From: Trichoplax sp. H2
Lineage: Eukaryota
Direction of reading: 5' to 3'
NCBI GenBank assembly: GCA_003344405.1
Contig: NOWV01000116.1
Coordinates: 1 to 64,000, forward strand
Length of the DNA stretch: 64,000 nucleotides
Shown here: positions 36,078-61,605 of the stretch, piece by piece
Layout of the letters: each line of letters opens with the position of its first letter
Position numbering within the stretch: the stretch's first letter is position 1
Translations under genes and position numbers: made by a program
The notes under the pieces: generated by a model
Database searches by the model: none
Told to the model about the DNA's origin: nothing
The model's input: the letters and a program-made list of their open reading frames with translations, nothing else

Positions 36078-39000
36078 TACAGCTTAAACCAATAGACGGT
36101 AAAATATCTAATAGACTGAAATTTAAATGTTGCCTGAGTTAAGCCTATCTGTAATGTAATTATTGAGGTGACAACCGTAAATCTAAGAAAAGCTCTTCAA
36201 TTCCTTCAAATTAGACAATATAAATATTAGCTCATGCTATCTATCGTAGTATCTTTGCAAAGAGTCATCTTGTACGGAAATAAATCAATTTACTTATAAC
36301 AACTGCAATAAACTTTTGAAAAGGTTCCAAACTTGTACGCCTATCGCTAATTTCGATCATGATCTGAAAGTGTACTTGTGTGAAACAATTTATTATGAGT
36401 GTTGTTGTCGTCTCTTATACGTATTAGCTAGAATATTGTTTACTGCAACAGGTTTATTGAATTACTATGTAACTAATAACAAACTACTTTCAATGAATTA
36501 CTATAAAAATTAGAGTATAAGCATAATAGGTGATTCCTATGTCTTTCTATTAGATATTGTAACAAATAGATATTGAAACCAACTATCGAAACGTCTATAG
36601 GTAATTTGTGAAAATCTACGTGCCTGAGGTACCGGTATATAAATAAAATATCAATTAGTAAAGTAGAACATAACTGGATCAAAGTCTTAATTAAATAGCA
36701 AGGAGAGTTCATTTCCTGAATAAGAATTGTCGATATCTTATAAACAAACTTCGCAAGTCTAGCTGTAGTAAAGAGTAGAAAAACATGCAGACTGTCTATA
36801 AATGTAGTCTACAAATATTTTTATTGAAGCGTACTTGTGTAATGAACATACATATTTTAATTTAGGTTACCTGTATCGTTTTAAATTTCAAATTTATCGA
36901 CCAACTCGAGTCATTTAAATGGGATCAATTGCATAATATATGGGCATGCTGGAATAAATGATTAATGTCATAGTAGATTTCACTTTACTTTGTGATTAAT
37001 TTTACTACACCAAGTTCTAATACTCGTGCACTATGGAAATAGTTATTAAAAGATTACTTAATCTCTAGTAATATTACACTATCGTTAGACACTGTAAAAA
37101 TAGGAAGTTCTTTTATTGTACAATATCCCTAAATGCATATATCATTGGTGTATAGAGTAGAAATATCAAAGCAAAATCTAGTTGGTATTGCTAGGCTTAC
37201 CTGTCTGTGACTAATTTCGGTTATAAAAGCGTAAATTAAATTTAGACAACGGATGCCCTATTTTATGATAACTTGCCACTATAATAGGTTAGTAAATACT
37301 ATCTTTTCTACAAGTATGTTATTACAGCGACTAATGACGATGATTCCTGCAATCATTCATACTGAAGCTGAAATTGCTTTAGCAATGCTTGCTTCTGCTT
37401 GGCTACTTGACAGCATTCGTAATTTTGCATACACGAGCTACTTAAAAAGTCGAATTCTTCTAGAATAGATTTTTGACAACGCTCAAATATCATGATGACT
37501 TTATTTTATTAGTATAATCTTACACCCTAAAACAAATATAAGAAGAATAGAGTATAACATAGATGATACAAACATAACTATTTAAGTATTAAGATTACTA
37601 TACTACGTACTTATATAGCTTACAATAACGACAAGAAATAAAAATAATTCCCTATCAACTAATGATAAACAACATATAAATCTACGTAGTAAGATGTTAA
37701 TCTATATTAACATAAGAAAGCGTCTTAATGGTTTGTGGTATTCTCGGTTGTATGCTTGTATTATCTTACAGCCATACATATTGTCTGAGAAATAGGTTGA
37801 AATTCGATTCCTCGCTTAAAAAATATTTTATAACCTCGTCTATATTGAGTAATGTTAAGAATTAAGATCTTATCGATTGTTTCTTTATCGATCTCTAAAA
37901 TTTTGGAACTTTTTAAGGATAGATATGAAACTAAATAGACGATTGAGGCATGGGTAATACTCGAATTAAGCGATGAAAATGTATGAAATCTATAAACGAG
38001 ATCGAACGTAACAATATAATGTACGAATAGACCTGTTATGATAAAAATGTAAAATGCTACTTGTAGCTGACTAATTGATATCTTAGGTGTGTAATACTTG
38101 AGATAGTTGTATAATTCTGCAGGAATACCAGTGCATGGATGAGTTCTACTTTCATATATATCGTAGTAGGTTTGACATAGTTTAGCTTGGAAATAATGAG
38201 AACCGTTGTTGCCTAAGTGAGCTTGGATTTTCTCTTTGAGTATGTTATGTCCGTCGTTAAAAGTACATTTTACACAACCGAAGCCACATTGCAATAATTT
38301 GACTGCAACTTTATTACTGTCTGACTCAATATATGAGTATTGAAAAACGATGCTCGAAATACCATTAATTGCATGATGGTGGTCGTCTCTTAGACTTCGT
38401 TTAATGTAATCCACAATACTAAGTTTGATAGTTTCTTCATTTAACATTTCTGGGGTATCAATTTCTACGTCATTGATACTGCCAGTTTGAGTGATGATAA
38501 AATCGACTCGCAAAATACCTTGCTTACTATCCAAGATTGTTTGAATATTTTCTTCTATTCTTGGCTTTACATCAATAATTCTTTGACATATAAGAGGACC
38601 TCGATCAGAGTAAGCGCTCAATAACAAATAGATAAAATGCACGTATGGAATTACAATAATAATAATTTCATTGAAATAGCTAGAAAATGCGAAAATAAAT
38701 GTTATAACAGTAATAGCGATTCTAGAAATCAATTGTAAACCGCAAGCTAATAGGGATGCAGTAAAAAAGACAAAAAAGAGTGAGTAGAACGTCATAAAGG
38801 CTAATACGAGAGGATGTATTAAAGGCCAATTTGTTATCTTGGGAAGTAAATTTCGTTTTAATTTGAATGTTAATACTTCAGAAATAAAAAGTAAAGCTCG
38901 TAAAAGTCCAATAAGTCCAAATATGCAAAATGGCAAGCAGATTATAAATGTTAAGAGATCTTTGATAAATTGAAATAGTTGTAGAGAAAGTAGATGATGT

Positions 39001-40759
39001 TTCATATCGACAAGAATGATGTTAATTTGGTGATAGGACTGTCGCTCATAACTTGGCGTTAAGTACATTTGTCTAGTTAGTAGCTCTTGATCATTGTCGT
39101 CAATTTGGTTATACGAATTATTTGAATCACTGGTCAATACCTGTTTCAAATGAGCTAAACTTAAAATCAATATGTATGGCCCGCAACATACTGCTATAAT
39201 AAATCCTATATCTTTAACGTCATGAAGTTTATCCATTTTATGAAATCGAGGTTTAAAAAAAAAATGCATTGAATTTCGTTGCAAAAGAAGAGAAAGAAAT
39301 CCCAATCCCGAAGATAGAATAACCAGTAATAAGAATATAATACAATGACTAATTTCTAGCCAATGGTAGTTAGTAGTATAGTCGGAAAAATGGAAATAGT
39401 TAACATTTTGAAAGTGTAACGTATCTAAGATACGAACCTTGACCATTTTCGTAAGATTTGTTGAATTTGGTAACATACTATCACTACGCTGGAGGTATGT
39501 TTCCCCGATTTGGTGAGACGATCCAGGCGATGATTGATAAGTTTCTTCTTGAATCAATCCTTGATGCGAATTATTAGTTTGTAGTAGGTTTAATGAATGA
39601 TCTTGACTCTCGTCAGAGGTAAGATGAGATTTATGTTCGCAATATCTATTGAAGGAAGATTTTATTCGGGTTATGTGCTACATATACTGTAATAACACTT
39701 TGGATCTGAACTAGGTATGGACTGTAACTGTAAAAAATTAACATTTCTATTTTGAGAAAACAAGTTTAGTTTGCGCTGGGTACTGAACATTGATGTAATT
39801 AGTTGGAATGCTTCTGAATAGATAAACAATAAATAATAGATTGCTTATAGACCGATAATACATAAAGTTCGTTACTGAATTTAAGGTTAACTTTCTACCG
39901 CTTTGTAAAATTTGTGACTTACCGATAATTACCTAATTCTTTCAAGAAGTTGTTAATAAGTTTATCTAACATAGTAACAGCTATAAGGGAACTGATTATT
40001 ATGGAAATTATTTGTACCATACGACCTGTCAATTTCTGTTTCCCTAGAATTAGGCATGTACTAATGTTAATTTTTGCAGCAACTATTTCTCTGTTACAGC
40101 ATGAATAAGGTATAGGATGATGTAAAAGTTCCTGTTTTCTATTAAAGCGTCGCCAAAATATTGTAGGACAATATCTACCAAAACAACCTCCACTTGAGTT
40201 TGTAAATTTTAATAATGCCTCAAAAATGATATACTTTCTTTTGGAATCACTTGTTAGTCGAGCATAGCAACCTCGGCTTGATTCAATAAGATTTAAACTC
40301 TGTCGATGTACGAAAACTGAATATAGACTTAAGCTTGTAGCAATATAATCGACCGGTAAAGAAATCAGAGCCCAACTAAAATCGTCTTTAACCCAGCCAT
40401 AGAAGTCATAATTTTTAGAATCGTTGTGTAGATTCTGACCATTTATTATCAGATTAAAATACACTATTTTAGTTTCTTTTGCTTCGATTTTTTGTCGAAA
40501 TAGGGCATAATGATGTGTATCATCATACACACTTAGAGAGCATTTGGAAGTGTTAAAAGACTTCTGTATCACTTGATCGGATGAATTTATAGACGCTGCT
40601 TGGATCAAGCAAACGACAAATACTACATAATGAAGAGATCGATTTCTAAACAAACCTAAAGTCATCGTCCTGTAAGATATAATTGAATAATATATTCACA
40701 TTACTTTAGTGTTCTGATATAATTACAATAAAGAATTATTACGTGTTAGAATTTTGTGT
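36078..40759. repeat. Arm A of a recent ~4.7-kb inverted segmental duplication (partner 49419-54454)
   Basis: The reverse complement is nearly identical to 49419-54454, including non-coding DNA. Homology ends sharply at 36078/54454 and 40759/49419. Confidence 0.95.
37442..40665 (-). CDS. Uncharacterised signal-peptide + Cys-rich ectodomain + multipass membrane protein, copy 1 (~875-878 aa)
   Basis: ORFs 39919-40665 and 37761-39557 join in phase via intron 39646-39922 (CG|GTAAGT..TCAATAG|A). A probable extra terminal exon lies at 37442-37459; without it the stop is at 37761. A probable non-coding 5' exon has its donor at 41165. Confidence 0.85.
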
Positions 40760-42434
40760 GCTTTTACTACAATATTAGCGATTACAAAATTAGCATTTCG
40801 TCGTATTTACTCTAAATGTCTACGCCTAAGTCTATTCGATCATTATAGGTATCTATTTATTCGCTAAATACAAGCCAGCTACAGTAAGAGATTTTAATGT
40901 CCCTAAAAATAAAATTAGAGGCAATCCGTAGAAGATAATGCGTAAGATTTGGAGAATGCAACATTATTAGCAAAGGTTACTCAGAATAACAGCTAGTGCA
41001 CACTTAATTATGCATTAAACTATCGAAAGATTTAACAATTGATATTGGAAATTATAAGTGAGTTACATATGGCACTAGAAATAACTACGTCGACGATTAA
41101 ATTGTTATATCAGAAACAGATTTTTCAAAAATCTAAGACATATATTAGATTTACTGTGAACTTACCTTCAATGTTACGATCAAGCTAACTTATAAAGGTC
41201 TTATTTCGCTCCTAGGACAATGATTTCTAAACTGTTTGAAATAACCAATTACGCAAGTTGAAATAGCAAAATGCCTAGAGATTTGATTATAAAACGCTGC
41301 AACACTTATTGATTGATAATGAAGTTTATTCTCTTATTGGGAAGTAATAATTTTGTACTAAAAATTGATGTTAAATTTTGAATAATTGACAATCTGAAAG
41401 AGAAGATTTACCAAATATTGTCGTTGTACACGTCACTTACGATCTGCAAATAAGCAATGTTTTCTCTATCTACTATTTCTTAAGTGATATCTATATCTAT
41501 CAACTGAAGTATTTAATTATTTATGCATAAAATAGTTTGTGATATCGTAATTTATGCAATGTTTGCATTTGTGTCATGCTGCGTCGAGAACGATAATAAC
41601 AACAGTAATAATTATTACAAAAATTGAGTAGCCGGTTTTACAGTGATATCGACGTTGGAATGAAGAAAACATCGACATTTTTTAATTTGATTCTATAGAG
41701 CTTTTACTAATAAACTATAGTTAACAATATCGATCTAATGTTACTGCTGCCTTGCTGCACTATAGAGAAGTAAACACGTAGGGTAAGTGATGGGGTAGCC
41801 TTCTCCTTCTGTAGTAGATCTCTTAAAATCTCGACTATGAAGCTATAACAATAGTAATCAACAAGAAACTGCAACTACTTTTTCAATCATACTCTCATTT
41901 CATAAGCTTCGTAGAGCTAACTACTGTTAGTGATCCTAAAATTTAAACAACATTATCAACCTACCTATCAGTTGTAATCATTTTGGCATTCTGTAGTGAT
42001 ACACCTCATATTTGATTATAATGATAGCTATATTCGATATAGTTAGGTTTCTAAGAATAGATATTATTGTGATGCTAATATTAGATGATTAATAACTACT
42101 ACATTAGAAATTGTCGATGACTAATGTAATGAAATGTAATATATAGAAATCAAGCTACAGAACTTTTAATAAATTTCGATTCAACCTTCGTGGCACTCTG
42201 GTCGACTAAACGAAACTTTGACACCCAATCAAATTGGGCAAACAACCGAACAACAATTTATTAAGTAAAATGTGAGACAGATAGACTAAACAACCTTCAA
42301 ATATTTGATTCTAAATATTATTGGTAAAGAGATCAAAAAACGACAGAACTGAAACTGTCAACAACAAAACAACCTAACAAAAAGAAGAACGTTTTCACTT
42401 ACAACAATTCTATCCAAAATAGTTGGTCAATTGT

Positions 42435-42622
42435 GCGGCCATTCATGGGGATTGACTGAATGGCGGGCCGATTGCTCGGTTATTGATTGGATTGACCAAG
42501 TTCACGGTTAGTTGCTCGGCCAGTCATAGGGAATAGCTGAATTGCTCGTCCAGTCATAGGGAATAGCCGAATTGCTCGGTCATTCCCTGGGAATGATCGA
42601 GCAACGGGGATTGACCGTAACA
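42435..42622. repeat. Short GC-richer array of ~29-bp units, possible transposon fragment
   Basis: TTGCTCG(G/T)CCAGTCATAGGGAATAGC(T/C)GAA tandem copies plus degenerate neighbours. Confidence 0.6.
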
Positions 42623-43061: not shown

Positions 43062-46001
43062 TTATCCTATAGCAATGCTTATTGCTTGAGAAATAGGTTG
43101 AAATTCGATTCCTCGTTTGAAAAATGTTTTATAACCTCGTCGATATTGAGTAATGTTAAGAATTAAGATCTTGTCGATTCTTTCTTTCTCGATCTCGAGT
43201 AGCTTGGAATATTTTAAAGATAGAAATGTAGCTAAATAGGCAATCGAAGTATTAGCAACAATCGAATTTAACGATGAAATTGAACGAAGTTTATAAACGA
43301 GAAAGATCGTAACAGTATAAAAGAAGAATAGAGCTGTTACGATTAAAATGTTAAATGCTACTTGTAATTGACTAATTGATATCTCAGGCGTATAATGTTT
43401 CAGATAATCGTATAATTCTGCAGGAATGCCAACGCTTTTATGAGCTCCATCTTCATATATATCGTAGTAGACTTGAGTTAATTTACTACGAAAGTAATAA
43501 GAATCTCTGTTTTGTAACTGAGTTTCTATTATCTCTGCGAGTGTACTATATCCGTTGTCGAAAGAGCATTTTACACAACCAAAGCCGCATTGCAATAATT
43601 TGACTGTAACTTTATTATTGTCCGACATATTTTGGGAGTATTGAAAAATAATGCTCGAAGTTCCATTAACTGCATGATGATGGCTATCTCTAACACTTCT
43701 TCTGATACAAACCTCGATACAATCTTTGATAATTTCTTCATTTAAAATTTCTGGGATATCAATTTCTACGTTACTAACATTGGCAACTTGAGTAATTATG
43801 AAATTGACTCGCAAAACACCTTGCTTACTATCCAAGATTGTTTGGATATTTTCTTCTATCCTAGATTTTACATCAATAATTCTTTGAGATATTAGAGGAC
43901 CTCGAATAAAATATGCACGTAATAATTGATAGATAAAATGCAAGTATGGTATCATAATAATAATAATTTGATTAAAATAGGCAGAAAACGCAAAAATAAA
44001 CGTTACGACAGTAATGAAGATTCTAAGAAATAATTGTATACCGAACAATAATATTGTTGCAGCAGTAAGGACAAGTACCATAGAGTATAATGTCATTATT
44101 ACTGACATAAGGAAATATGTTAAAGGCCAATTCCTTCTGTTGGGCAGTAAATTTCGTTTACATTTCAATGTTGATATTTCAAAAATAAAAAATAAAGCCC
44201 GTAAAAGCCCAATGAGTCCAAGTATACAAAATGGCAAACAAGCTGTAAGTGTCAAGAGATCTTTGATAAATAGAAGTAGTTGTAGAGATAGTAAATGGTC
44301 TTTCATATCGACAAGAATGATTTTAATTTGGTGATAGGACTGTCGCTCATGACTTGGTGTTAAGTATATTTTTCTAGATAGTAGCTCTTGATCATTGGTA
44401 CCATTTTGGTTATACAATTCTTTTGAATCTCTCGAATATATTTGTTTCAAAAGGCATACAATAAAGAAGACTGTGTATGGCCCATAGGCGCAAACTACTA
44501 TATAACTTATTTCAGGTATGTTGTGAATTATCTCGCTTTTATTAAATTTGGGCGTAAAAATAAAATATGTTGAATTTCGTTGTACAAGAAGAGAAATAAA
44601 TCCCAATCCACCGGACAGGATAACTAGTGATAATAGCTTAATAGAGTAACATATTTTTCGCCAATGATAATTGATAGCATAGTCGTAAAAATAGAGATAG
44701 TTAACATTTTGCGACTGTAACGTATCTAAAATGCGAATCTTAACCATTTTCGGAAGATTTACTGAATTTGATAACATACGATTGCTGAATCTGCCATGCG
44801 TTCCACTAATTTGATGAAATGATCTAAGCAATGATTGATGAATTTCTTCTTGATCTAATTCCTGACACGAATTATTAGTTGACTGGTTTAATCGATAATT
44901 TTGACTCTCATCTGAGGTCAAGTGAGATTCTTGTTGGAAATATCTAGAAGAAAAGAAATTTTACTGGGACTAAATGTTACATATACTGTAATAACACTTT
45001 AAATCTGAGTTAATAGTGTCAAAAATCCAATATTAGATTGTAAGTACTGTAGTTGTAAGGGGTTAATATTTTATATTACGCGAAAAATAAGTTTTGTTTA
45101 CGCTGGTACTGAACATTGAAGTAAATAGTCGGGTTATTAAAAAAACAGATAGACAATAAACTATGAATTGCTTGTAGAATGATAATATATAAAATTTGTT
45201 ATTCAATTTAAAGTTAAATTCATATCGCATTGTAAAATATGTGACTTACCGATAACTGCATAATTCTTTCAAGAACTTATTAATAAGTTTATCCAATACT
45301 ACAGCGGCCATAGAGTAGCTAATCATCATGGAAATTATTCGCATAGCATGAACGTACCACAGTTGCTTTTTAGGTGTTAGGCATGTGCTAATGTTAATTT
45401 TGGGATTAATTGTTCTTCTGTTACAGCAAGAATACTTAACATTCCGATAAAAAAATCCATCTAATCTATTGAAGGATCGCAAACATATTGTAGAACAATC
45501 TTGACCATAACAACCTTGATTTAAGTTTGTAAATTGTAGTAATGTTGTAAATACGATGTGCTGTCTTTGGGTATCATTTAGTTCATCATAACAACCTCGG
45601 GTTGATTCAATAAGATCTAAGCTTTGTTCAGACGTGAAAATTGAATATAGGTTTAAGCTTATAGCAATGTAATCGGTCGGCAAAGAAATCATAGCCATGC
45701 CAAGATCTTTTCTAACCAGACTATAAAAATCATGGTCATAGTAACGTTCGCTTATAGTACGTTGCTCTACAGTCTGATTATTTATAGTCAAATAAAAAAA
45801 AACTACTCGAGTTCTTTCTGATTGGATAATTTCTCGAAATAGGGCATGTTCAGATGCATTATCCTTCACAGTTAGAGAACAATTGGAATTATCAGAAAGT
45901 TCCTGTATGACTGGATCGGATAAATCACTATACACTGCTTGGATTAAGCAAGCAATAAACACCACATAATGAGATCGATTCCTAAGCAAATCTAAAGGCA
46001 T
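43062..46001 (-). CDS. Same multipass membrane family, copy 2 (877 aa)
   Basis: Exons 45250-46001 and 43062-44943 have the same phase-2 intron. Shared motifs: MVKxRILDTL, RQSYHQI, LLQCGFGCVKC, GIPAELYxYLK, KILILNITQYRRGYK. Confidence 0.87.
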
Positions 46002-47054
46002 CGTTCTATAGCAAATAATTGAATGAAATACATATGGATGTTACTTGTATGTTACGATTTAATTGCAGCGAAGAATGTTACCGTAATTGTCAGAATTTTG
46101 CGAGATTTTATTAGAATATTAACGATTACTACAACGAAATTTCGTCTCAGCCATCTAAAATGTCACGACCGCAAGTTAAACTTAAAAAAATCTTATTTAT
46201 TTTCACGTTACTAATGAGTAGCAACAAATAACAAATTGTCAACGAGCAACTTAATGAGTTATTCAAATTTAGCATAGGCCGAAGTCTTCTCTTTTTTTCT
46301 CTATCGTATCTCCTTTTTATACCATTACAGTTAATCGATCAATACTCTATATTTGTAAGGTAAGTTAATAAAACACGACAACAGTAAATATATTTTTAAA
46401 AATTAATCTCACGACAGTAATTATCCCTGAAATGGTCAATATAACCAATAATAATCCCTAATATGGAAACCAATTGAACATAACATAAAATACTGTAAAA
46501 TGGTGAACATAGCCACTAATAATCCCTAATATGGAAATCAATCTAACAGAACATAAAATATTTCTTTCTAAGCGTACTCAGTCATTATAGGTATCAATTT
46601 ATTGCTAAATACTGGCCAGCTACAGTAAGAAATTTTAGCGCCACAAAATGAAATAAACGGAAGTTGCAGAAAATAATTTATAAAACTTAGAGAATATACT
46701 AGTATCAGCAAAAGTTACGCAAAGTAAAAGCTGATGCATAATGAAATATGCATTAAATAACCGAAAGAAGAGAAAATCCAAGTTGTAAAATTACATGTAA
46801 GTAATATTCAACACTAGAAATTATAGGTTGATAATCAAATTGTCATATGAGGAATAAATGTATTTTCAAAACTCAAAGATATAAGCTAGATTTATTTTGG
46901 ATTTACCTTCAACGTTAAGATAGCGCTGGCCTATAAAGCTCTCATTTCACTCCTAATATGATTTTGGAATACTTATTTGTTTCAAGATCATATTAATCTT
47001 TATATGTGCTACTTAAAGCCCTTGGTGGTATCAGAAAATAAACAAGTGTTGGTA

Positions 47055-49512: not shown

Positions 49513-52500
49513 ATGACTTTAGGTTTGTTTAGAAATCGATCTCTTCATTATGTAGTATTTATCGTTTGCTTGATCCAAGCAGCGTCTATAAATTCATCCG
49601 ATCAAGTGATACAGAAGTCTTTTGACGCTTCCAAATGCTCTCTAAGGGTGTATGATGATACACGTCATTATGCCATATTTCGACAATATATCGAAGCAAA
49701 AGAAACTAAAATAGTGTTTTTTAATCTGACAATATTTGGTCAGAATCTACACAACGATTCTAAAAATTATGACTTCTATGGCTGGGTTAAAGACGATTTT
49801 AGTTGGGCTCTGATTTCTTTACCGGTCGATTATATTGCTACAAGCTTAAATCTTTATTCAGTTTTCGTACATCGACTGAGTTTAAATCTTATTGAATCAA
49901 GCCGAGGTTGCTATGCTCGACTAATAAGTGATTCCAAAAGAAAGTATATCATTTTTGAGGCATTATTAAAATTTACAAACTCAAGTGGAGGTTGTTTTGG
50001 TAGATATTGTCCTACAATATTTTGGCGACGCTTTAATAGAAAACAGGAACTTTTACATCATCATATATCTTATTCACATTGTAACAGAGAAATAGTTGCT
50101 CCAAAAATTAATATTAGTACATGCCTAATTCTAGGGAAACAGAAATTGACAGGTCGTATGGTACAAATAATTTCCATAATAATCAGTTCTCTTATAGCTG
50201 CTACTATGTTAGATAAACTTATTAACAACTTCTTGAAAGAATTAGGTAATTATCGGTAAGTCACAAATTTTACAAAGCGGTAGAAAGTTAACCTTAAATT
50301 CAGTAACGAACTTTATGTATTATCGGTCTATAAGCAATCTATTATTTATTGTTTATCTATTCAGAAGCATTCCAACTAATTACATCAATGTTCAGTACCC
50401 AGCGCAAACTAAACTTGTTTTCTCAAAATAGAAATGTTAATTTTTTACAGTTACAGTCCATACAATGCAATACAGTGCTGTATCTATGACAATGCTAGTT
50501 CAGATCCAAAGTGTTATTACAGTATATGTAGCACATAACCCGAATAAAATCTTCCTTCAATAGATATTGCGAACATAAATCTCATCTTACCTCTGACGAG
50601 AGTCAAGATCATTCATTAAACCTACTACAAACTAATAATTCGCATCAAGAATTGATTCAAGAAGAAACTTATCAATCATCGCCTGGATCGTCTCACCAAA
50701 TCGGGGGAACATGCTTCCAGCGCAGTGATAGTATGTTACCAAATTCAACAAATCTTACGAAAATGGTCAAGGTTCGTATCTTAGATACGTTACACTTTCA
50801 AAATGTTAACTATTTCCATTTTTCAACTATACTACTAACTACCATTGGCTAGAAATTAGTCATTGTATTATATTCTTATTACTGGTTATTCTATCTTCGG
50901 GATTGGGATTTCTTTCTCTTCTTTTGCAACGAAATTCAATGCATTTTGTTTTTAAACCTCGATTTCATAAAATGGATAAACTTCATGACGTTAAAGATAT
51001 AGGATTTATTATAGCAGTATGTTGCGGGCCATACATATTGATTTTAAGTTTAGCTCATTTGAAACAGGTATTGACCAGTGATTCAAACAATTCGTATAAC
51101 CAAATTGACGACAATGATCAAGAGCTACTAACTAGACAAATGTACTTAACGCCAAGTTATGAGCGACAGTCCTATCACCAAATTAACATCATTCTTGTCA
51201 ATATGAAACATCATCTACTTTCTCTACAACTATTTCAATTTATCAAAGATCTCTTAACATTTATAATCTGCTTGCCATTTTGCATATTTGGACTTATTGG
51301 ACTTTTACGAGCTTTACTTTTTATTTCTGAAGTATTAACATTCAAATTAAAACGAAATTTACTTCCCAAGATAACAAATTGGCCTTTAATACATCCTCTC
51401 GTATTAGCCTTTATGACGTTCTACTCACTCTTTTTTGTCTTTTTTACTGCATCCCTATTAGCTTGCGGTTTACAATTGATTTCTAGAATCGCTATTACTG
51501 TTATAACATTTATTTTCGCATTTTCTAGCTATTTCAATGAAATTATTATTATTGTAATTCCATACGTGCATTTTATCTATTTGTTATTGAGCGCTTACTC
51601 TGATCGAGGTCCTCTTATATGTCAAAGAATTATTGATGTAAAGCCAAGAATAGAAGAAAATATTCAAACAATCTTGGATAGTAAGCAAGGTATTTTGCGA
51701 GTCGATTTTATCATCACTCAAACTGGCAGTATCAATGACGTAGAAATTGATACCCCAGAAATGTTAAATGAAGAAACTATCAAACTTAGTATTGTGGATT
51801 ACATTAAACGAAGTCTAAGAGACGACCACCATCATGCAATTAATGGTATTTCGAGCATCGTTTTTCAATACTCATATATTGAGTCAGACAGTAATAAAGT
51901 TGCAGTCAAATTATTGCAATGTGGCTTCGGTTGTGTAAAATGTACTTTTAACGACGGACATAACATACTCAAAGAGAAAATCCAAGCTCACTTAGGCAAC
52001 AACGGTTCTCATTATTTCCAAGCTAAACTATGTCAAACCTACTACGATATATATGAAAGTAGAACTCATCCATGCACTGGTATTCCTGCAGAATTATACA
52101 ACTATCTCAAGTATTACACACCTAAGATATCAATTAGTCAGCTACAAGTAGCATTTTACATTTTTATCATAACAGGTCTATTCGTACATTATATTGTTAC
52201 GTTCGATCTCGTTTATAGATTTCATACATTTTCATCGCTTAATTCGAGTATTACCCATGCCTCAATCGTCTATTTAGTTTCATATCTATCCTTAAAAAGT
52301 TCCAAAATTTTAGAGATCGATAAAGAAACAATCGATAAGATCTTAATTCTTAACATTACTCAATATAGACGAGGTTATAAAATATTTTTTAAGCGAGGAA
52401 TCGAATTTCAACCTATTTCTCAGACAATATGTATGGCTGTAAGATAATACAAGCATACAACCGAGAATACCACAAACCATTAAGACGCTTTCTTATGTTA

Positions 52501-52766
52501 ATATAGATTAACATCTTACTACGTAGATTTATATGTTGTTTATCATTAGTTGATAGGGAATTATTTTTATTTCTTGTCGTTATTGTAAGCTATATAAGTA
52601 CGTAGTATAGTAATCTTAATACTTAAATAGTTATGTTTGTATCATCTATGTTATACTCTATTCTTCTTATATTTGTTTTAGGGTGTAAGATTATACTAAT
52701 AAAATAAAGTCATCATGATATTTGAGCGTTGTCAAAAATCTATTCTAGAAGAATTCGACTTTTTAA
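49513..52766 (+). pseudogene. Same family, copy 3, frameshifted (inverted duplicate of copy 1)
   Basis: Exon 49513-50255, then exon 2 from 50564. TTTTTCCGACTAT in copy 1 reads TTTTTCAACTAT here (net -1 nt at ~50824), giving a stop at 50852. The downstream frame stays open to 52447. The 5' non-coding exon was not duplicated. Could also be a consensus error. Confidence 0.75.
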
Positions 52767-53403
52767 GTAGCTCGTGTATGCAAAATTACGAATGCTGTCA
52801 AGTAGCCAAGTAGAAGCAAGCATTGCTAAAGCAATTTCAGCTTCAGTATGAATGATTGCAGGAATCATCGTCATTAGTCGTTGTAATAACATACTTGTAG
52901 AAAAGATAGTATTTACTAACCTATTATAGTGGCAAGTTATCATAAAATAGGGCATCCGTTGTCTAAATTTAATTTACGCTTTTATAACCGAATTAATCGC
53001 AGACAGGTTAGCCTAGCAATACCAACTAGATTTTGCTTTGATATTTCTACTCTATACACCAATGATATATGCATTTAGGGATATTGTACAATAAAAGAAC
53101 TTCCTATTTTTACAGTGTCTAACGATAGTGTAATATTACTAGTGATTAAGTAATCTTTTAATAACTATTTCCATAGTGCACGAGTATTAGAACTTGGTGT
53201 AGTAAAATTAATCACAAAGTAAAGTGAAATCTACTATGACATTAATCATTTATTCCAGCATGCCCATACATTATGCAATTGATCCCATTTAAATGACTAG
53301 AGTTGGTCGATAAATTTGAAATTTAAAACGATACAGGTAACCTAAATTAAGATATGTATGTTCATTACACAAGTACGTTTTAATAAAAATATTTATAGAC
53401 AGT

Positions 53404-53761
53404 TGTTACAATACGTAAGCTCGTCCTAATTACAGAAGTTTCTGACGAGACTATAAAAGGCTGGTGCCTGAAGATTCCTTTTTAGTTAGTTGATCGGTTG
53501 GATAGTCAACTAGTTTTTCAATTGATATTTAATTGTAAAGTCTATAATCTTGGGTACCGAGATTTCTTCAGTATTAAATGATAGTCAATCTCTGACTTTC
53601 TCGTCTACACTATCTGTGACGCTAACATTGTACCATAGTATTCGGTCGTTGGAACTGAATTATTTGGTGATATAGCTAATCTCGCCTCTTTAAGTTAGTA
53701 AGTGGTGTTCTCCGCAAGGATTGGCGTGTGTAGACTACTTTGTCACTAGTGGTGTGTGACA
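53404..53761 (+). mobile_element. Solo LTR of an LTR retrotransposon (358 bp)
   Basis: TGTTACA...TGTGACA termini and a perfect 5-bp TSD ACAGT (53399-53403, 53762-53766). TATAAAA at 53452 and ATTAAA at ~53573. Absent from the paralogous site in arm A (~36791-36795). Confidence 0.85.
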
Positions 53762-54782
53762 ACAGTCCGCATGTTTTTCTACTCTTTACTACAGCTAGAC
53801 TTGCGAAGTTTGTTTATAAGATATCGACAATTCTTATTCAGGAAATGAACTCTCCTTGCTATTTAATTAAGACTTTGATCCAATTATGTTCTACTTTACT
53901 AATTGATATTTTATTTATATACCGGTACCTCAGGCACGTAGATTTTCACAAATTACCTATAGACGTTTCGATAGTTGGTTTCAATATCTATTTGTTACAC
54001 TATCTAATAGTAAGACATAGAAATCACCTATTATGCTTATACTCTAATTTTTATAGTAATTCATTGAAAGTAGTTTGTTATTAGTTACATAGTAATTCAA
54101 TAAACCTGTTGCAGTAAACAATATTCTAGCTAATACGTATAAGAGACGACAATAACACTCATAATAAATTGTTTCACACAAGTACACTTTCAGATCATGA
54201 TCGAAATTAGCGATAGACGTTCAAGTTTGGAACCTTTTCAAAAGTTTATTGCAGTTGTTACAAGTAAATTGATTTATTTCTGTACAAGATGAAAGCATGA
54301 GCTAATACTTATATTATCTACTTTGAAGGAATTGAAGAGCTTTTCTTAGATTTACGGTTGTCACCTCAATAATTACATTACAGATAGGCTTAACTAAGGC
54401 AACATTTAAATTTCAGTCTATTAGATATTTTACCGTCTATTGGTTTAAGCTGTAATCAAGGTGCACGCTACTTAGTAAACGTGATAATAAATCGTATTTC
54501 AATAGTCTTATTAAATTAATAATCATGATTCACATGTAATTGATTAATATGCAGTGCTCTCAGTACCCCGCCGGTTTAGTTGGCTCAGGTCGTGTCATGC
54601 TATCTACAAATTTATCTCAGATGCGCAATAAAGTAACTAAGGCAGTTCTTAAATTCGCGTTCATGCGACTAAAATAACTAACTGAATTGCGTTCATTGCT
54701 ACGATAGATATATACCAACAATGGCGAGATGCACTTTATATATGAACTTGACCGTATGCGAAATCGGTCATTTTGCAAACTG

Positions 54783-56807: not shown

Positions 56808-57063
56808 GATAGAGACTGATGATGAGATTACTTAAGCATTACATGTACTATACCAAATTTCTCCCAATTGAAAAGAATATAGAACATCAACTTTAACCCA
56901 AGCAATATTAGCGGGTAAAAGCAACACGCAAACTATCGTTAAATGCAGTTATAACGGTTTGCCTGTTTCTAGGTTTAAGGTTCATGTTCTATATCCTTAA
57001 TATTTGGGAGAAATTTGGTATATTACAAGTAATACTTAAATCATCTCATCATCAGTCTCTATC
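56808..57063. mobile_element. MITE-like element with ~60-bp terminal inverted repeats
   Basis: GATAGAGACTGATGATGAGAT..TATACCAAATTTCTCCCAA (56808-56868) and TTGGGAGAAATTTGGTATA..ATCTCATCATCAGTCTCTATC (57004-57063), with a non-coding interior. Confidence 0.75.
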
Positions 57064-57089
57064 CGAATGATCTTACCCAATGATCCAAT

Positions 57090-57800
57090 GATCTTGATCT
57101 TGACCCTCGTCTGAGGTAAGGTGAGATTTTTGTTCGCAATATCTATTGAAGGAAGATTTTATTCGGGTTATATGCTACATATACTGTAATAACACTTTGG
57201 ATCTGAGCTAGCATTGCCATAGATACAGCACTGTATTGTATTGTATGGACTGCAACTGTAAAAAATTAACATTTTTTACCGTGAGAAAACAAGCTTTGTT
57301 TGCGCTGGGTACTGAACATTGATGTAATTAGTTGGAGTACTTCTGAATAGATAGACAGCAAACAACAGATTGCATATAGACCGGTAGTACATAAAGTTTG
57401 AAACTGAATTTAAGGTTAATTTTCTACCGCTTTGTAGAATTTGTGACTTACCGATAATTATCTAATTCTTTCAAGAAGTTGCTAATAAGTTTATCTAACA
57501 TAGTAGCAGCTATAAGGGAACTGATTATTATCGCAATTTTTTGTACTATAGGAACTATCCATTTCTGTTTCCTTGGAACTAGGCATGTACTAATGTTAAT
57601 TTTTGGAGCAGGTATTTCTCTGCTACAGCATGAATAAGATATAGGATGATGTAAAAGTTCCTGTTTTCTATTAAAGCGTCGCCAAAATATTGTGGGACAA
57701 TATCTACCAAAACAACCTCCACTTGAGTTTGTAAATTGTAATAATGGCGCAAATACAATATAATTTCTTTCGGAATCACTTGTTAGTCGAACATAGCAAC
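57090..57800 (-). pseudogene. Fragment of the membrane family (3' half of exon 1, intron, first ~50 nt of exon 2)
   Basis: CYVRLTSDSERNYIVF..GGCFGRYCPTIFWRRFNRKQELLHHPISYSCC..KELDNYR, most similar to copies 1 and 3. Truncated at both ends. Confidence 0.88.
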
Positions 57801-58337
57801 TAGGAATAGCTTTATTAGAAATAGTCGATGAATTTAAAAACTTTACGTTATTGGAAAGACTGTCACTGTCGGCACTTGTAAGCTTCATAGATCTACCAAC
57901 TGTTAGTGATCCTAAAGATTTTTATTATTATCAATCTATCATGTTTCAGAAGCATCTCCACCAGCATGCTTTCTAAATGAAAGTTCATTAAGACTCAGAA
58001 AACTAACAAAAATTGTAAAAGTTCATTGATTTGACTAATTTTACTATAAAAAGGTAACAATTGAACCTTAATTATTAAGATTTAGTCACTAATGCTACAA
58101 TCACAGTACATTTTAGATTTTACTTGCAACTGCTAATGTTGGTCATCTAATAGCAACGGATGTCCTACTTTATAATAATTTTCTACGACAATAGTTAATA
58201 CTGTCTATTCTATGTTATTACGGTGATTAATGACGATAATTCCTGCTATCATTCACGCTGATGCTGAACCTAATATAGCAATATTTGCTTCTACTTGGTT
58301 ATTTGATTGTATTTATAATTTTTCGTACACGAGTTAC

Positions 58338-61300
58338 TTATAATATCCAATTCTTCTAGAACAAATGTTAGACACCGTTAAAATTTTGTAATAATGTCTT
58401 TATTTTCTTTAACATGTAATAGCAATAATTATAGGAAGAAAATGAGTACACTATGTACTGATAATACAAATTAAATAATTATTTAATTATTTAGATTGCG
58501 GTATAGTGTTATTTTACAGCTTATAATAATGATAAACAAATGTTCGCCCTCGACTATCGTTAAAAATATACAATTTTGTAGTAAGATGATAAAATAGGTC
58601 AACATAAAAAGGCGTATTAATAGCAATAGTTAACAGTATCCTCAGTTTTTGTCTATTTATTCGCGTATTATTATCTTACGGCCATGCTTATCATCTGAGA
58701 AATAGGTTGAAATTCGACGCCTCGCTTGAAAAATATTTTATAACCTCGTCGATATTGAGTAATGTTAAGAATTAATATCTTGTCGATTCTTTCATTCTTG
58801 ATCTCGAATAGTTTGAAATACTTTAAAGTTAGAGTTGTAGCTAAATAGGCAATCGAGGTATTAGCAATAATCGAATTTAACGATGAAATTGAACGAAATT
58901 CATAAACTAGAAAGAATGTAATGATATAATAAAAGAATAGACCTGTTACGATTAAAATGTTAAATGCTACTTGTAATGGACTAATTGAAATCTCAGATGT
59001 ATAATATTTCAGATAATCGTATAATTCTGCTGGAATACCTGTGCATTGATGAGTTCCATTTTCATATATATCATAGTAGGTAGGAGTTAATTTAGTACGA
59101 AAATAATGAGAATCTCTGTTTTGTAAGTGAGCTTCAATTATCCCTGTGAGTGTGCTGTATCCGTTGTCAAAAGTACATTTTACACAACCGAAGCCACATT
59201 GCAATAATTTGACTGTAACTTTGTTATTATCCGACTCATTACGTGAGTAATGAAAAATGATGCTCGAAGTTCCATTAATTGCATGATGATAGCCATCTCT
59301 AAGACTTCGCTTGATGCAATCCTCAATACTTTTTTTGATAATTTCTTCATTTAACATTTCTGGGATATCAAATTCTACGTTATTAATACTGTTATTTTCA
59401 GCGATAATAAAATTAACTCTCAAATAACCTTGCTTACTCTCCAATATTGTTTGAATATTTTCTTCAATTCTTGATTTTACAGCAATAATCCGGTGACATA
59501 TAAGAGGACCTCGATTAGAGTATGCACTTAATAACAAATAAATGTGATGCGAGTATGGAATCATAATAACAATAATTACATTGAAATTGGTAGAAAACGC
59601 GAAAATAAATGTCGTCATAGTAATGAAGATTCTAATAATCAGTTGTAAACCGCCAATTAAAAGTGATGCAGTAAAAATGACGAAAAAAACAGAGTATATC
59701 GTCATGATAACTGACATAAGACGATATGCTAAAGGCCAATTCGCTCTCTTAGGGAGTAAATTTCCTTTCAATTTAAAAGTTAATAGTTCAGAAATAAAAA
59801 AGAAAGCTCTTAAAAGTCCAATAAGTCCAAACATACAAAATGGCAAGCAGATTATAAATGTTAAGAGATCTTTGATAAATTGAAATAATTGTAGAGAGAG
59901 TAAGTGGCGTTTCATATCAACAAGAATAATCTTAATTTGGTGATAGGACTGTCGGTCATTACTTGGTGTCAAGTATGTTTGTCTAGATAGTAGCTCTTGA
60001 TCGTTGGCGTGACTTTGATTAAACAATTTTTTTGAATCACTAGACCATACTTGTTTCAAATAGGCTACAATTAAGATCAATATGTATGGTACACAAATTA
60101 CTGCTATAATTAAACCTAGTTCTTTAATATTGTGAAATTTCTCCAATTGATAAAACCTAGGCATAACAATAAAAAGTGTTGAATTTCGTTGTACAATAAT
60201 AGAAAGAAATCCCAACCCACCAGACAAAATAATAAATGATAGTAATTTAATACAATGATTAATTTCTAGCCAATGGTACTTGGTAGCATAATCAGAAAAG
60301 TAGAGATAGTTAACATTTTGAAAGTGTAACGTATCTAAGATGCGAACCTTAACCATCTGCAATAGATTTGTCGAATTTGGTAATATACAAATGCTGCATC
60401 TTAAGTATGCTCCACTCATTTGATGAGATGATCTAAGCAATGATTGATGAGATGAGTTTTGAATTGATTCCTGATGCGAATTATTAGTTAGGAGTTGGTT
60501 TAATTGATGAGTTTGGCTCTGATCTGAGGTAAGGAGAGATTCTTGTCGGAAATATCTATAAGAAAAGTAATTCTACTAAGACTGAATGTTACATATACTG
60601 AATTAATACTTCGGATCTGTACTAATGATGTTAATGCAATGCTGTATTCCATTATATGGAATATACAGTAGCGTTAAGAGATTAATATTTTCTACTATGA
60701 GAAGAATAAGTCTTGCTTGCGCTGGATGCTGAATATTGAAGCATTTAGTCGGGTTACTTAATAATAGATAAACAATAAATGATACATCGTTTGTAGACTA
60801 GTATATAAAATTTGTTATAGAATTTTAGGTTAATAATACTCTGCATTATAAAATTTGTGACTTACCGATAACTGCCTAATTCTTGCAAAAAGTTGTTAAA
60901 AAGTTTATCTATTAGTGTAGCAGCCATAAGCAAGCTAAGTATAATGGAAATTATTTGTACAGCAGGACCATACCAAAGTTGTTTTGGAGGGACTAGACAT
61001 GTGCTAACGTTAATTTTGGGGTTAATGGTTTCTCTATTACAGCATGAATAGGATACGTTATGATTAAGGAATATATCTTCTCTATTAAAGCGTCGCCAAC
61101 ATATTGTAGAACAATTTTGACCATAACAACCTTGGTTTAAATTTGTAAATTGTAGTAATGTTGTAAATACGATATGCATTTTTTGGGAATCATTTGTTAG
61201 TCGAGCGTAGCAACCTTGGTTTGATTCAATAAGATTGAAACTCTGTTCGTGTGTGAAAGCTGCATATAGGTTTAAGCCTGTAGCAATGTAATCGGTAGAT

Positions 61301-61605
61301 AAAGAAATCATAGCTATACCAGCATCTTCTCTAACCCATCCATAAAAGTCATGGTTTTTATGATCAGTCTGCAGATTCTTATTATCTATAGTCAAATTAA
61401 AAAAGATTACTCGAATTGTTTTTGGTCGGGTAAGTTCTCGAAATCGGGCATATTCAGATACATTATCCTTCACAGTTAGTGAGCAATTACAGGTGTCAAA
61501 AGGCTGCTGTATCACTTGATCGGATGGATTAGTATACGCTACTTGGATTAAGCAAACGATAAATGCCATATAATGAGATCGATTGGTAAATAAACCTAAA
61601 ATCAT
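58338..61605 (-). CDS. Same multipass membrane family, copy 4 (~874-877 aa)
   Basis: Exons 60866-61605 and 58680-60555 are in phase. A probable terminal exon lies at 58338-58355; without it the stop is at 58671. Probable 5' non-coding exon donor at 62066. Confidence 0.87.

What the first reader, a model, noticed from the sequence alone, without database searches (positions are those of the whole stretch)
37442..61605. Expanding cluster of an unrecognised receptor- or channel-like membrane protein family
Seen: five related loci. Each full copy has a signal peptide, a ~190-aa ectodomain with conserved Cys and NxS/T sites (YDFYxWV..ISLPxDYIAxSLxLY..LIESxRGCY..GCxGxxCxTI..YSCC..INISTCL) and about 8-9 hydrophobic segments. 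A ~190-aa soluble insert with invariant LLQCGFGCVKC precedes the last two segments. Probable 5' UTR exon donors are conserved at 41165, 46906 and 62066. I cannot assign it to a known family. Inference: a birth-and-death family of surface sensors (immune, symbiont-recognition or chemosensory). Its adjacency to murA is notable but may be coincidental.
Basis: partly seen in the sequence, partly recalled or inferred. Interest (0 to 1): 0.75.

Follow-up and report, generated by a model that had tools for sequence, protein, structure and literature searches.

The report
Placozoan orphan membrane-protein gene cluster
A stretch of the Trichoplax genome holds three working genes, one broken copy and one remnant of a membrane-protein family that resembles no known protein, carries a cysteine-rich outward-facing domain, and is switched on in particular cell types, including the animal's macrophage-like fibre cells.

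Summary
The window is Trichoplax sp. H2 DNA. Positions 37.4-62.1 kb carry five loci of one family. Three are intact genes with two coding exons (TrispH2_008788, _008789, _008792; 874-877 aa). One is an inverted near-identical duplicate of the first that is frameshifted, lacks the 5' exon and has lost an invariant Cys. One is a truncated relic.

Each protein has a signal peptide, a ~190-aa ectodomain (8 conserved Cys, ~5 sequons), TM1, a disordered linker and an 8-TM core. A ~175-aa alpha/beta insert and a conserved YRRGYxFF tail are both predicted cytoplasmic.

Nothing matched in Pfam, PDB sequences, PDB folds or viral folds. Only 26 relatives turned up among 1.84 billion representative proteins. 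Published tables list 29 orthogroup members in four placozoans (3-14 per species). Pairwise dN/dS is 0.46-0.55, highest in the ectodomain in two of three pairs.

Published single-cell modules place 008788 and 008789 in the fibre-cell module and 008792 in an unnamed epithelial module. The neighbouring murA, a rickettsial transfer, sits in a different module.

Best reading: a placozoan-restricted, birth-and-death family of receptor-like surface glycoproteins, with paralogues used in different cell types. Sensor function is inferred, not shown. A channel or transporter core is the main rival.

The parts
39923..40665 (-). c1 (TrispH2_008788) coding exon 1: signal peptide, ~190-aa Cys-rich ectodomain, TM1
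   Evidence: Spliced CDS equals P0001 exactly; 100% tblastn match; P0001 named
37761..39645 (-). c1 coding exon 2 (stop included): linker, 8-TM core, ~175-aa soluble insert, last two TMs, YRRGYxFF tail
41162..41175 (-). c1 conserved 5'UTR-exon donor (G of GT at 41165)
45250..46001 (-). c2 (TrispH2_008789) coding exon 1
   Evidence: Spliced CDS equals P0005
43062..44943 (-). c2 coding exon 2 (stop included)
46903..46916 (-). c2 conserved 5'UTR-exon donor (GT at 46906)
49513..50255 (+). c3 (annotated TrispH2_008790) exon 1 of the inverted duplicate. It has 18 of 247 residues changed relative to c1, including the invariant Cys189 to His. Homology to c1 ends ~100 nt upstream of the ATG, so no 5'UTR exon
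50562..52447 (+). c3 exon 2, frameshifted by a 1-nt deletion near 50825 (G at 39384 in c1). The annotated model P0003 hides it behind an invented intron that removes the TM2-TM3 region
57097..57801 (-). c4 relic: exon 1 from residue ~132, the intron and the first 16 codons of exon 2. No start and no core
   Evidence: (I7, D1)
60866..61605 (-). c5 (TrispH2_008792) coding exon 1
   Evidence: Spliced CDS equals P0004
58671..60555 (-). c5 coding exon 2 (stop included)
62063..62076 (-). c5 conserved 5'UTR-exon donor (GT at 62066)
36265..40759 (.). Left arm of the inverted duplication (c1 plus 1.5 kb downstream). It contains a 1,610-nt tract (37398-39007) with no difference from the right arm
49419..54292 (.). 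Right arm of the inverted duplication (c3). Relative to the left arm it carries a ~356-nt and a 31-nt insertion

Best explanation
The region is a locally duplicated cluster of a placozoan-restricted family of multi-pass membrane glycoproteins.

Exon 1 encodes a modular outward-facing unit: signal peptide, a ~190-aa alpha/beta ectodomain held by about four disulphides and several N-glycans, and TM1. Exon 2 encodes the ancestral unit: an 8-helix membrane core, a ~175-aa cytoplasmic alpha/beta domain inserted before the last two helices, and a conserved cytoplasmic YRRGYxFF..G..FxP tail. The predicted topology is 9 TM helices, N terminus outside and C terminus inside.

Most likely working (inferred): these are receptor-like surface proteins. 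The faster-evolving ectodomain binds something outside the cell, or in a lumen. The conserved core, cytoplasmic domain and tail pass that on to, or anchor, intracellular partners.

Paralogues are used by different cell types. c1 and c2 belong to the fibre-cell programme; fibre cells are contractile, phagocytic and house the symbiont. c5 belongs to an unnamed epithelial programme.

The cluster turns over by tandem and inverted duplication, gene conversion and decay.

Shown: gene structures, family limits, topology prediction, purifying selection and module membership. Inferred: cell-surface location, ligand binding and signalling.
For: Gene models. Spliced CDSs equal the annotated proteins.

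Topology.
- The AlphaFold model (22-sequence alignment, mean pLDDT 66.2, pTM 0.57) has nine long membrane helices: 212-248, 342-371, 389-419, 471-490, 494-514, 524-567, 573-606, 774-799 and 806-827.
- Across the family, predicted inside loops hold a mean of 7.7, 2.4 and 7.4 K+R. Predicted outside loops hold 1.8, 0.4, 0.1 and 0.7.

Ectodomain. It averages 9.1 Cys and 4.6 NxS/T sequons per sequence. The insert averages 3.7 Cys and 1.4 sequons. Five Cys are invariant and three nearly invariant in the 10 ectodomain-bearing sequences.

Selection. Pairwise dN/dS among intact copies is 0.46-0.55 overall, 0.52-0.87 in the ectodomain and 0.28-0.42 in the insert.

Conservation. The most conserved columns are in the insert and tail: D644, P646, L649, P756, Y849, G852, Y853 and F856. 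They are mostly structural residues, and I see no obvious catalytic set.

Expression (Najle et al. 2023, Table S3; supplement rows seen).
- 008788 (0.788), 008789 (0.811) and 008790 (0.524) are in TrH2.blue, annotated 'fibre'.
- 008792 (0.834) and 008793 (0.976) are in 'epithelia_unknown' modules.
- In T. adhaerens, 2 of 7 members are in the fibre module.
- The main text says the fibre module contains bacterial-response genes (passage seen).
- Fibre cells phagocytose bacteria (Mayorova 2021, abstract seen) and house Grellia in their rER (Gruber-Vodicka 2019, passages seen).

Turnover. The window copies form one clade (100/100). Copy numbers are 3, 5, 7 and 14 in four placozoans. One pseudogene and one relic are present.
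Against: - 12 of 22 aligned relatives have no ectodomain. Some may be truncated gene models, but one whole clade of five lacks it. Ligand binding by the ectodomain therefore cannot be the family's core function.
- No known signalling, adaptor or enzymatic domain was found.
- Ectodomain dN/dS stays below 1 among intact copies. The only value above 1 (1.44; 21 nonsynonymous against 4 synonymous changes) is c1 against the pseudogene c3, and it fits neutral decay.
- Model confidence is moderate. 183 of 875 residues have pLDDT below 50, and the alignment is shallow.
- Surface location was not tested; a signal peptide is equally compatible with ER or endosome residence.
- Cell-type evidence is WGCNA module membership only.
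- The T. adhaerens orthologue of c1 (TriadG60548) sits in the un-annotated module Tadh.grey60, not in the fibre module.
- c1 and c3 share 1.6 kb with no differences (exon 2), with only two differences over the next ~360 nt that include the 3'UTR. With 3'-biased single-cell reads their counts could be confounded. I did not check the read chemistry.
- The other subfamily (OG_4849) has 0 of 7 H2 members and 3 of 6 T. adhaerens members in any module.
Confidence: 0.4

Rival explanations
1. Channel or transporter. The conserved 8-helix core is the working part: an ion channel or carrier, possibly oligomeric. The cytoplasmic insert and tail regulate it. The ectodomain is an accessory acquired by some members through the extra exon.
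For: - The core, insert and tail are what the whole family shares. The ectodomain is present in only 10 of 22 aligned members.
- Polar residues are conserved inside the sixth membrane helix: Q552 in 18 of 20 and R556 in 18 of 20 filled rows. A Ser/Tyr-rich AxSxYF motif is also conserved, along with conserved prolines (P486, P581).
- Two very long helices (524-567 and 573-606) are reminiscent of channel-lining helices (a resemblance only).
Against: - No fold or sequence match to any solved channel or transporter. The best PDB fold hit is Piezo2 at E=0.3 with TM-score 0.06; PDB sequence and profile searches gave nothing at E below 0.08.
- No internal repeat of the kind common in transporters. 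hhalign between helix pairs gave probability of at most 9.1%.
- No selectivity-filter-like or P-loop motif was recognised.
- Oligomerisation was not tested.
Confidence: 0.3
2. Endomembrane protein at the symbiont interface. The proteins stay in the rough ER or phagosomal membranes of fibre cells. Their 'ectodomain' faces the lumen, where the rickettsial symbiont Grellia or ingested bacteria lie. Their position next to the symbiont-derived murA reflects a shared role in managing bacteria.
For: - c1 and c2 are in the fibre-cell module.
- Grellia lives in the rER lumen of fibre cells (PMC6784892, passages seen).
- murA, 2.1 kb from c1's stop codon, is a rickettsial-type gene: 63-70% identical to seven Rickettsiaceae or alphaproteobacterial MAG loci of the 12 found. 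It was published as an LGT (PMC3641634, passages seen).
- A signal peptide fits a luminal domain as well as an extracellular one.
Against: - murA is in a different expression module ('cilia/multiple', 0.609).
- c5 and 008793 are epithelial, not fibre.
- No ER-retention motif is evident at the C termini (..ICMAVR..ISMAVR..ISIAIG, by eye).
- Nothing links the ectodomain to peptidoglycan or to any bacterial ligand.
- Adjacency of two genes is weak evidence on its own.
Confidence: 0.12
3. Decaying or spurious genes. The ORFs are remnants of a mobile element or are neutrally drifting, and the annotation and module memberships are noise.
For: - Two of the five loci are dead.
- Overall dN/dS near 0.5 is high for essential genes.
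- The family has no known domain.
Against: - Three copies keep 874-877-codon frames open despite dS of 0.39-0.46 between them, with dN/dS clearly below 1 in every long domain.
- The two-exon structure, splice sites and 5'UTR exon donor are conserved.
- Relatives down to 18-21% identity keep the same core.
- Orthogroup members exist in four placozoan species.
- Module memberships reach 0.98.
- No transposase or other Pfam domain was found.
Confidence: 0.03

Closest known systems
Lineage-specific tandem arrays of surface receptors (for example insect odorant/gustatory receptors, nematode chemoreceptors, invertebrate immune-receptor arrays); comparison from general knowledge
   Same: Local tandem and inverted duplicates, with pseudogenes and relics beside intact copies. 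Copy number differs between close species (3-14). Paralogues are assigned to different cell types. The outward-facing part evolves fastest in two of three pairs.
   Different: No sequence or fold relationship to any of them. The topology is 9 TM, N-out/C-in, with a large conserved cytoplasmic domain, not 7 TM. No ligand is known. Ectodomain dN/dS is below 1.
SID-1/SIDT transmembrane family (architecture recalled from memory)
   Same: The outline matches: signal peptide, N-terminal extracellular domain, a first TM helix, a ~100-aa cytoplasmic linker, then a multi-helix core. Overall size is similar (~830-880 aa).
   Different: No Pfam hit of any kind at E<=1. No PDB fold hit at E<=0.001. SID-1 has no 175-aa insert before its last two helices and no YRRGYxFF tail.
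TM9SF / nonaspanin (EMP70) proteins (architecture and role in phagocytosis/adhesion recalled from memory)
   Same: Signal peptide, a luminal or extracellular N-terminal domain, and nine membrane helices. Like TM9SF proteins, they are expressed in phagocytic cells.
   Different: No Pfam match. TM9SF proteins are ancient and near-universal in eukaryotes, whereas this family has only 26 detectable relatives in 1.84 billion representatives. TM9SF lacks the cytoplasmic linker and insert.
MHC class I-like platform fold
   Same: Weak, repeated Foldseek hits to MHC-I-like domains (OMCP, m152, m153, HLA) from the full-length model. The insert has a beta-beta-alpha-beta-beta-alpha order.
   Different: Probabilities are at most 0.25, TM-score by target at most 0.29, and rmsd 7-12 A. 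The hits disappear when the ectodomain alone is searched. They therefore most likely stem from the rest of the model, perhaps the insert predicted to be cytoplasmic. I treat them as chance.

Membership tests
Any curated Pfam family | Score above the gathering cut-off of a Pfam-A model | tested here: not met
   - No family for P0001, P0004, P0005 or P0006 at E<=1, nor for the three exon-2 translations.
- The c1 exon-1 translation gave only TssR_M at E=0.041, 14 bits against a cut-off of 25.7.
- The 24 further relatives gave one sub-threshold hit (ROH1-like, 15.6 against 21.5 bits).
- At E<=10 no family was hit by more than 1 of 22 members.
- An unexplained precomputed label 'PF28478.1' appears on P0005 only.
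G-protein-coupled receptors (7tm_1/2/3, adhesion, frizzled) | Seven-helix bundle with N-out/C-in topology and a match to a 7tm model or GPCR fold | tested here: not met
   Nine membrane helices are predicted. There is no Pfam hit. The only GPCR in the fold list is the V2 receptor at E=2.0, probability 0.08, TM-score 0.07/0.15.
Insect-type 7TM chemoreceptor channels (OR/GR) | Seven helices, N-in topology, match to the 7tm_6/7tm_7 models (names recalled) | tested here: not met
   No Pfam hit at all. A signal peptide with N-out topology is predicted. No such structure appears among the rows of the PDB fold search that were printed (ranks to 50 of at least 500 matches with E<=10).
SID-1/SIDT | Match to the SID-1 RNA-channel model or fold; 11 TM helices with a conserved zinc site in the core (recalled) | tested here: not met
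   No Pfam hit. No SIDT structure appears among the PDB fold hits shown. The zinc site was not examined.
TM9SF/EMP70 | Match to the EMP70 model (name recalled); nine C-terminal helices directly after the luminal domain | tested here: not met
   No Pfam hit. A ~100-aa linker and a ~175-aa insert interrupt the helices.
Known ion-channel or transporter folds in the PDB (Piezo, TRP/PKD, TMEM16/OSCA, MFS and others) | Significant structural superposition of the membrane core | tested here: inconclusive
   None of the PDB matches reaches E<=0.001; the best is Piezo2 at E=0.3 with TM-score 0.06/0.05. The model is of moderate confidence (pTM 0.57) and AlphaFold DB was not available, so a distant relationship cannot be excluded.
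Placozoan orthogroup OG_4851 of Najle et al. 2023 | Listed in the published four-species Broccoli orthogroup | tested here: met
   TrispH2_008788, _008789, _008790 and _008792 are rows of OG_4851, which has 29 genes: Hhon 14, Tadh 7, TrH2 5, HoiH23 3. The group carries no name or Pfam architecture in the tables.

The most novel reading that the evidence does not exclude
This is a receptor class invented within Placozoa, built on a membrane fold not yet seen in any solved structure. Fibre cells would use it to recognise bacteria: prey, pathogens or the rER-resident Grellia symbiont. The diversifying ectodomain would face the bacteria, and the conserved cytoplasmic domain would couple to phagocytic or NF-kB-type responses. 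Together with the adjacent symbiont-derived murA it would mark a genomic neighbourhood devoted to managing bacteria.
Probability: 0.08. Interest if true: 0.85.

Novelty: categorically new. Interest (0 to 1): 0.55.

Why it matters
Placozoans are among the simplest animals. They are a key reference for how cell types, immunity and symbiosis arose in animals. Their fibre cells are macrophage-like and carry an intracellular rickettsial symbiont.

A family of large, glycosylated, multi-pass membrane proteins that exists only in this phylum, varies in copy number between species and is split between fibre cells and an unnamed epithelial state is a concrete candidate for phylum-specific cell-surface biology. 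That could be recognition, adhesion or transport.

If the fold is truly new, it would add a membrane-protein architecture with no solved relative.

If it is only an orphan structural protein, the finding is still useful. It corrects two published gene models: P0003, whose invented intron hides a frameshift, and P0002, which skips the same ~97 codons for a reason I could not check. It also flags a probable pseudogene whose near-identical 3' end could confound single-cell counts, if those reads are 3'-biased.

'Categorically new' here means only that every membership test failed. It does not mean a new mechanism has been demonstrated.

Tried and rejected
- Pfam scans of exon translations, full proteins and 24 further relatives gave nothing.
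- PDB sequence and profile searches gave only chance-level hits: whole exon 2, the family profile, the ectodomain, and the insert plus tail. The best was the TcdA1 N-terminus at E=0.081 and 15.5 bits.
- Foldseek found no match at E<=0.001 in three searches: the full-length model against the PDB, the ectodomain model against the PDB, and the full-length model against the viral BFVD library. The best BFVD row is a 116-aa uncharacterised Lymphocystis disease virus 4 protein (E=0.23, probability 0.91, TM-score by target 0.44). I did not follow it up.
- ESM Atlas gave a best feature score of 0.75, below lead level. Its structure rows (TonB-like, TM-score 0.13-0.35) rest on the Atlas's own poor model, pLDDT 0.35.
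- An internal-repeat test by hhalign between helix pairs and between insert halves gave probabilities of 0.1-31%, not significant.
- Taxonomic naming of the relatives failed.
  - A profile search with the search for homologous proteins returned only the 5 close Trichoplax proteins.
  - The most distant relative, P0026, returned only itself, from ENA and without a name.
- Literature searches found no paper for 'TRIADDRAFT_60548' or 'PF28478'.
- Co-expression of murA with the family was rejected because the two are in different modules.
- Complex prediction was not used, because the report does not claim a binding pair.
- Not checked:
  - AlphaFold DB is not on hand.
  - Modules of the 17 Hoilungia and Cladtertia members of OG_4851 were not looked up.
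  - 4 of the 47 rows of OG_4849 were not listed.

Full report
**Source and setting.** The window is AT-rich eukaryotic DNA, with GC 0.29-0.32 across the region. A search with the exon-2 translation of the first copy returned a 100% identical 875-aa protein, 'hypothetical protein TrispH2_008788 [Trichoplax sp. H2]', on a 244-kb contig. It also returned the paralogues TrispH2_008789, _008790 and _008792, the T. adhaerens protein TRIADDRAFT_60548, and a 36%-identical paralogue, TrispH2_001801. The window is therefore placozoan nuclear DNA.

**Checking the observation.**
- tblastn of P0001 against the whole window finds five loci and no more.
- Three loci are intact. Joining exon 1 to exon 2 across a phase-2 intron (CG|GTAAGT ... 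TAG|A) reproduces the annotated proteins exactly:
  - c1: 40665..39923 + 39645..37761
  - c2: 46001..45250 + 44943..43062
  - c5: 61605..60866 + 60555..58671
- c3 is an inverted duplicate of c1. The arms are 36265-40759 and 49419-54292, at 98-100% identity. Three things mark c3 as dead:
  - It has a 1-nt deletion that breaks the frame.
  - It shares only ~100 nt upstream of the ATG with c1, so it lacks the 5'UTR exon.
  - It has lost an invariant cysteine, Cys189 to His (invariance).
- The annotated model of c3 (P0003, 776 aa) hides the lesion behind an invented intron that removes TM2-TM3. The T. adhaerens model P0002 skips the same codons. I could not check whether T. adhaerens carries the same lesion.
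- c4 (57097-57801) is a relic: the 3' half of exon 1, the intron and 16 codons of exon 2.
- The three proposed 5'UTR donors are exact. The consensus AACRTTGAWG|GTAA occurs three times in 64 kb, only at 41165, 46906 and 62066; the chance expectation is 0.01.

**Anatomy of the protein.**
- Hydropathy and an AlphaFold2 model built on a 22-sequence family alignment (mean pLDDT 66.2, pTM 0.57) agree on the layout:
  - a hydrophobic leader (signal peptide judged by eye);
  - an alpha/beta ectodomain, residues ~40-190;
  - TM1 (212-248);
  - a disordered Ser/Gln/His-rich linker (244-340, pLDDT below 50);
  - eight further membrane helices;
  - an alpha/beta domain (608-766, pLDDT mostly 75-91) between the seventh and eighth membrane helices;
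  - a helical tail.
- Counting from the signal peptide gives an N-out/C-in topology, with the insert and tail cytoplasmic.
- The positive-inside rule agrees across the family. Predicted inside loops average 7.7, 2.4 and 7.4 Lys+Arg; predicted outside loops average 1.8, 0.4, 0.1 and 0.7.
- The ectodomain averages 9.1 Cys and 4.6 N-glycosylation sequons. The similarly sized insert averages 3.7 Cys and 1.4 sequons.
- Five Cys are invariant and three nearly so in the 10 ectodomain-bearing sequences.
- The best-conserved columns of the whole family lie in the insert (ID.PE.L, GIP.ELY.YLRYY.P) and the tail (YRRGY.FF..G..F.P), plus Q552/R556 inside the sixth membrane helix.

**Family range.**
- An exhaustive phmmer scan of 1.84 billion representative proteins found 26 relatives at E<=1e-3, 19 at E<=1e-10 and 10 at E<=1e-30.
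- That library has no names, and the look-up that would give them was unavailable. Only P0004 and P0006 are known to be Trichoplax.
- Published four-species orthology tables (Najle et al. 2023, Table S4, rows seen) list the window genes in OG_4851, which has 29 genes: Hoilungia 14, T. adhaerens 7, H2 5, Cladtertia H23 3.
- P0006 is listed in OG_4849, which has 47 genes.
- The family therefore runs to at least ~76 genes over four placozoans.
- I found no evidence of it outside the phylum, but I could not prove its absence there.
- In a maximum-likelihood tree of 24 sequences the window copies form one clade (100/100) on a long stem, nested among ectodomain-bearing relatives. A separate clade of five lacks the ectodomain.
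- Exon 1 thus behaves as a module added to an 8-TM core.

**Comparison with known families.** Every comparison was negative.
- No Pfam family matched.
- PDB sequence and profile searches gave nothing at E below 0.08.
- Foldseek gave no match at E<=0.001 with the full model against the PDB (best: Piezo2, E=0.3, TM-score 0.06), the ectodomain model against the PDB, or the full model against BFVD.
- A string of MHC-I-platform hits at probability 0.1-0.25 vanished when the ectodomain alone was searched. I treat them as noise, perhaps from the beta-beta-alpha-beta-beta-alpha insert.
- ESM Atlas gave no usable lead.
- No internal repeat was detected.
- A precomputed label 'PF28478.1' on P0005 could not be reproduced or identified.

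**Evolution of the cluster.**
- Pairwise Nei-Gojobori estimates among c1, c2 and c5 give dS 0.39-0.46 and dN/dS 0.46-0.55 overall.
- By region, dN/dS is 0.52-0.87 in the ectodomain and 0.28-0.42 in the insert. The ectodomain is the fastest region in two of the three pairs. In the c2-c5 pair several shorter segments exceed it (TM1 0.98, signal peptide 0.79, linker 0.71). The insert is the slowest region only in the c2-c5 pair: in c1-c2 the 25-residue signal peptide (0.36) is lower, and in c1-c5 the TM core (0.36) is lower.
- This is relaxed but real purifying selection.
- c1 and c3 differ at 25 of 741 exon-1 positions: 21 nonsynonymous and 4 synonymous, dN/dS 1.44, compatible with neutrality. 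They show no difference over 37398-39007, a 1,610-nt tract.
- That pattern fits a gene-conversion tract between inverted copies, or an assembly artefact. The frameshift lies 377 nt beyond the tract's edge.

**Expression (published data, supplement rows seen).**
- In the WGCNA module table of Najle et al. 2023, TrispH2_008788 (0.788), _008789 (0.811) and _008790 (0.524) belong to TrH2.blue, annotated 'fibre'.
- _008792 (0.834) and _008793 (0.976; outside the window) belong to 'epithelia_unknown' modules.
- In T. adhaerens, 60549 and 60550 are in the fibre module and 60551 is in 'epithelia_unknown'. 60548, 60552, 60553 and wf_g9525 are in Tadh.grey60, which the annotation sheet does not list.
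- Caveats:
  - This is module membership, not in situ data.
  - The T. adhaerens orthologue of c1 is not in the fibre module.
  - c1 and c3 are nearly identical at their 3' ends, so counts from 3'-biased reads could be confounded. I did not check the read chemistry.
  - c2 is distinct, and it has the highest fibre membership.
- In the other subfamily, 0 of 7 H2 members and 3 of 6 T. adhaerens members have any module.
- The paper's text says the fibre module includes bacterial-response genes.
- Fibre cells phagocytose bacteria (Mayorova 2021, abstract) and house the Rickettsiales symbiont Grellia in their rER (Gruber-Vodicka 2019, passages).

**murA.**
- The ORF at 34307-35608 (+) is an intronless EPSP_synthase-family gene (E=2.7e-97).
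- Of 12 bacterial loci recovered from GTDB genomes with it, seven are 63-70% identical. Six of those are Rickettsiaceae and one is an unclassified alphaproteobacterial MAG. This agrees with the published rickettsial LGT (Driscoll 2013, passages).
- It converges on c1, 2.1 kb from c1's stop codon. The left arm of the inverted duplication begins ~650 bp after its stop.
- Its module ('cilia/multiple', 0.609) differs from those of the family.
- I regard the adjacency as unsupported by expression and probably coincidental. The shared link to fibre cells and their symbiont keeps a small probability alive.

**Verdict.**
- The best-supported reading (confidence 0.4) is a placozoan-restricted, birth-and-death family of receptor-like, glycosylated 9-TM surface proteins with cell-type-specific paralogues.
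- A channel or transporter core is the main rival (0.3).
- An endomembrane symbiont-interface role is the boldest reading still open.
- Every membership test failed, so I rate the protein family as categorically new. The function is not demonstrated, and the structural negatives rest on moderate-confidence models.

Noticed in passing
window 34307-35608 (+): Intronless murA (EPSP_synthase family, E=2.7e-97), with GC 0.37 against ~0.31 in the flanks. Its closest GTDB relatives are Rickettsiaceae MAGs at 63-70% identity. It was published as a rickettsial LGT in T. adhaerens. In the single-cell module table it (TrispH2_008787) sits in a 'cilia/multiple' module, not with the membrane family.
   Followed up: partly
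window 37398-39007 and its mirror in 50819-52992: A 1,610-nt tract with zero differences between the inverted copies c1 and c3. It is embedded in flanks that differ by 1-3%. This is either a gene-conversion tract or an assembly artefact.
   Followed up: partly
window ~53400-53762 (right arm), opposite 36795 in the left arm: A ~356-nt insertion in the c3 arm relative to the c1 arm, and a 31-nt insertion in c3's intron opposite 39714. The nature of the inserted DNA was not examined.
   Followed up: no
window 22734-25287 (+): A BTB-BACK-Kelch (KLHL-type) gene in at least three exons (BTB 1.5e-30, BACK 9.8e-31, Kelch_1 up to 4.2e-39).
   Followed up: partly
window 3881-4456 (+): An ORF with a zf-C3Hc3H domain (E=9.6e-16), probably one exon of a larger gene.
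   Followed up: no
window 20065-20544 (+): Two long ORFs in overlapping frames over the same low-complexity, repeat-like sequence. It looks like a tandem or simple repeat rather than a gene.
   Followed up: no
P0005 (c2, window 43062-46001): The protein database lists a precomputed Pfam label 'PF28478.1' for this paralogue only. The local Pfam copy gives no hit at E<=1, and no paper holds the accession.
   Followed up: partly
beyond the right end of the window (genes TrispH2_008793-008795): The published tables put TrispH2_008793 in the same orthogroup as the window genes. They put the next two genes (008794, 008795) in the neighbouring-numbered OG_4850. The cluster probably continues past position 64000. 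Homology of OG_4850 to the family was not verified.
   Followed up: no
model of P0001 (c1) against the BFVD library: The best viral-structure row is a 116-aa uncharacterised protein of Lymphocystis disease virus 4 (E=0.23, probability 0.91, TM-score by target 0.44, 117 columns). It is not significant by E-value. I could not tell which domain it aligns to.
   Followed up: no
window 36473-36808 (-) and 53734-54084 (+): A 111-116-codon ORF without a Pfam match lies inside both arms of the inverted duplication, downstream of c1 and of c3. It is probably non-coding.
   Followed up: partly
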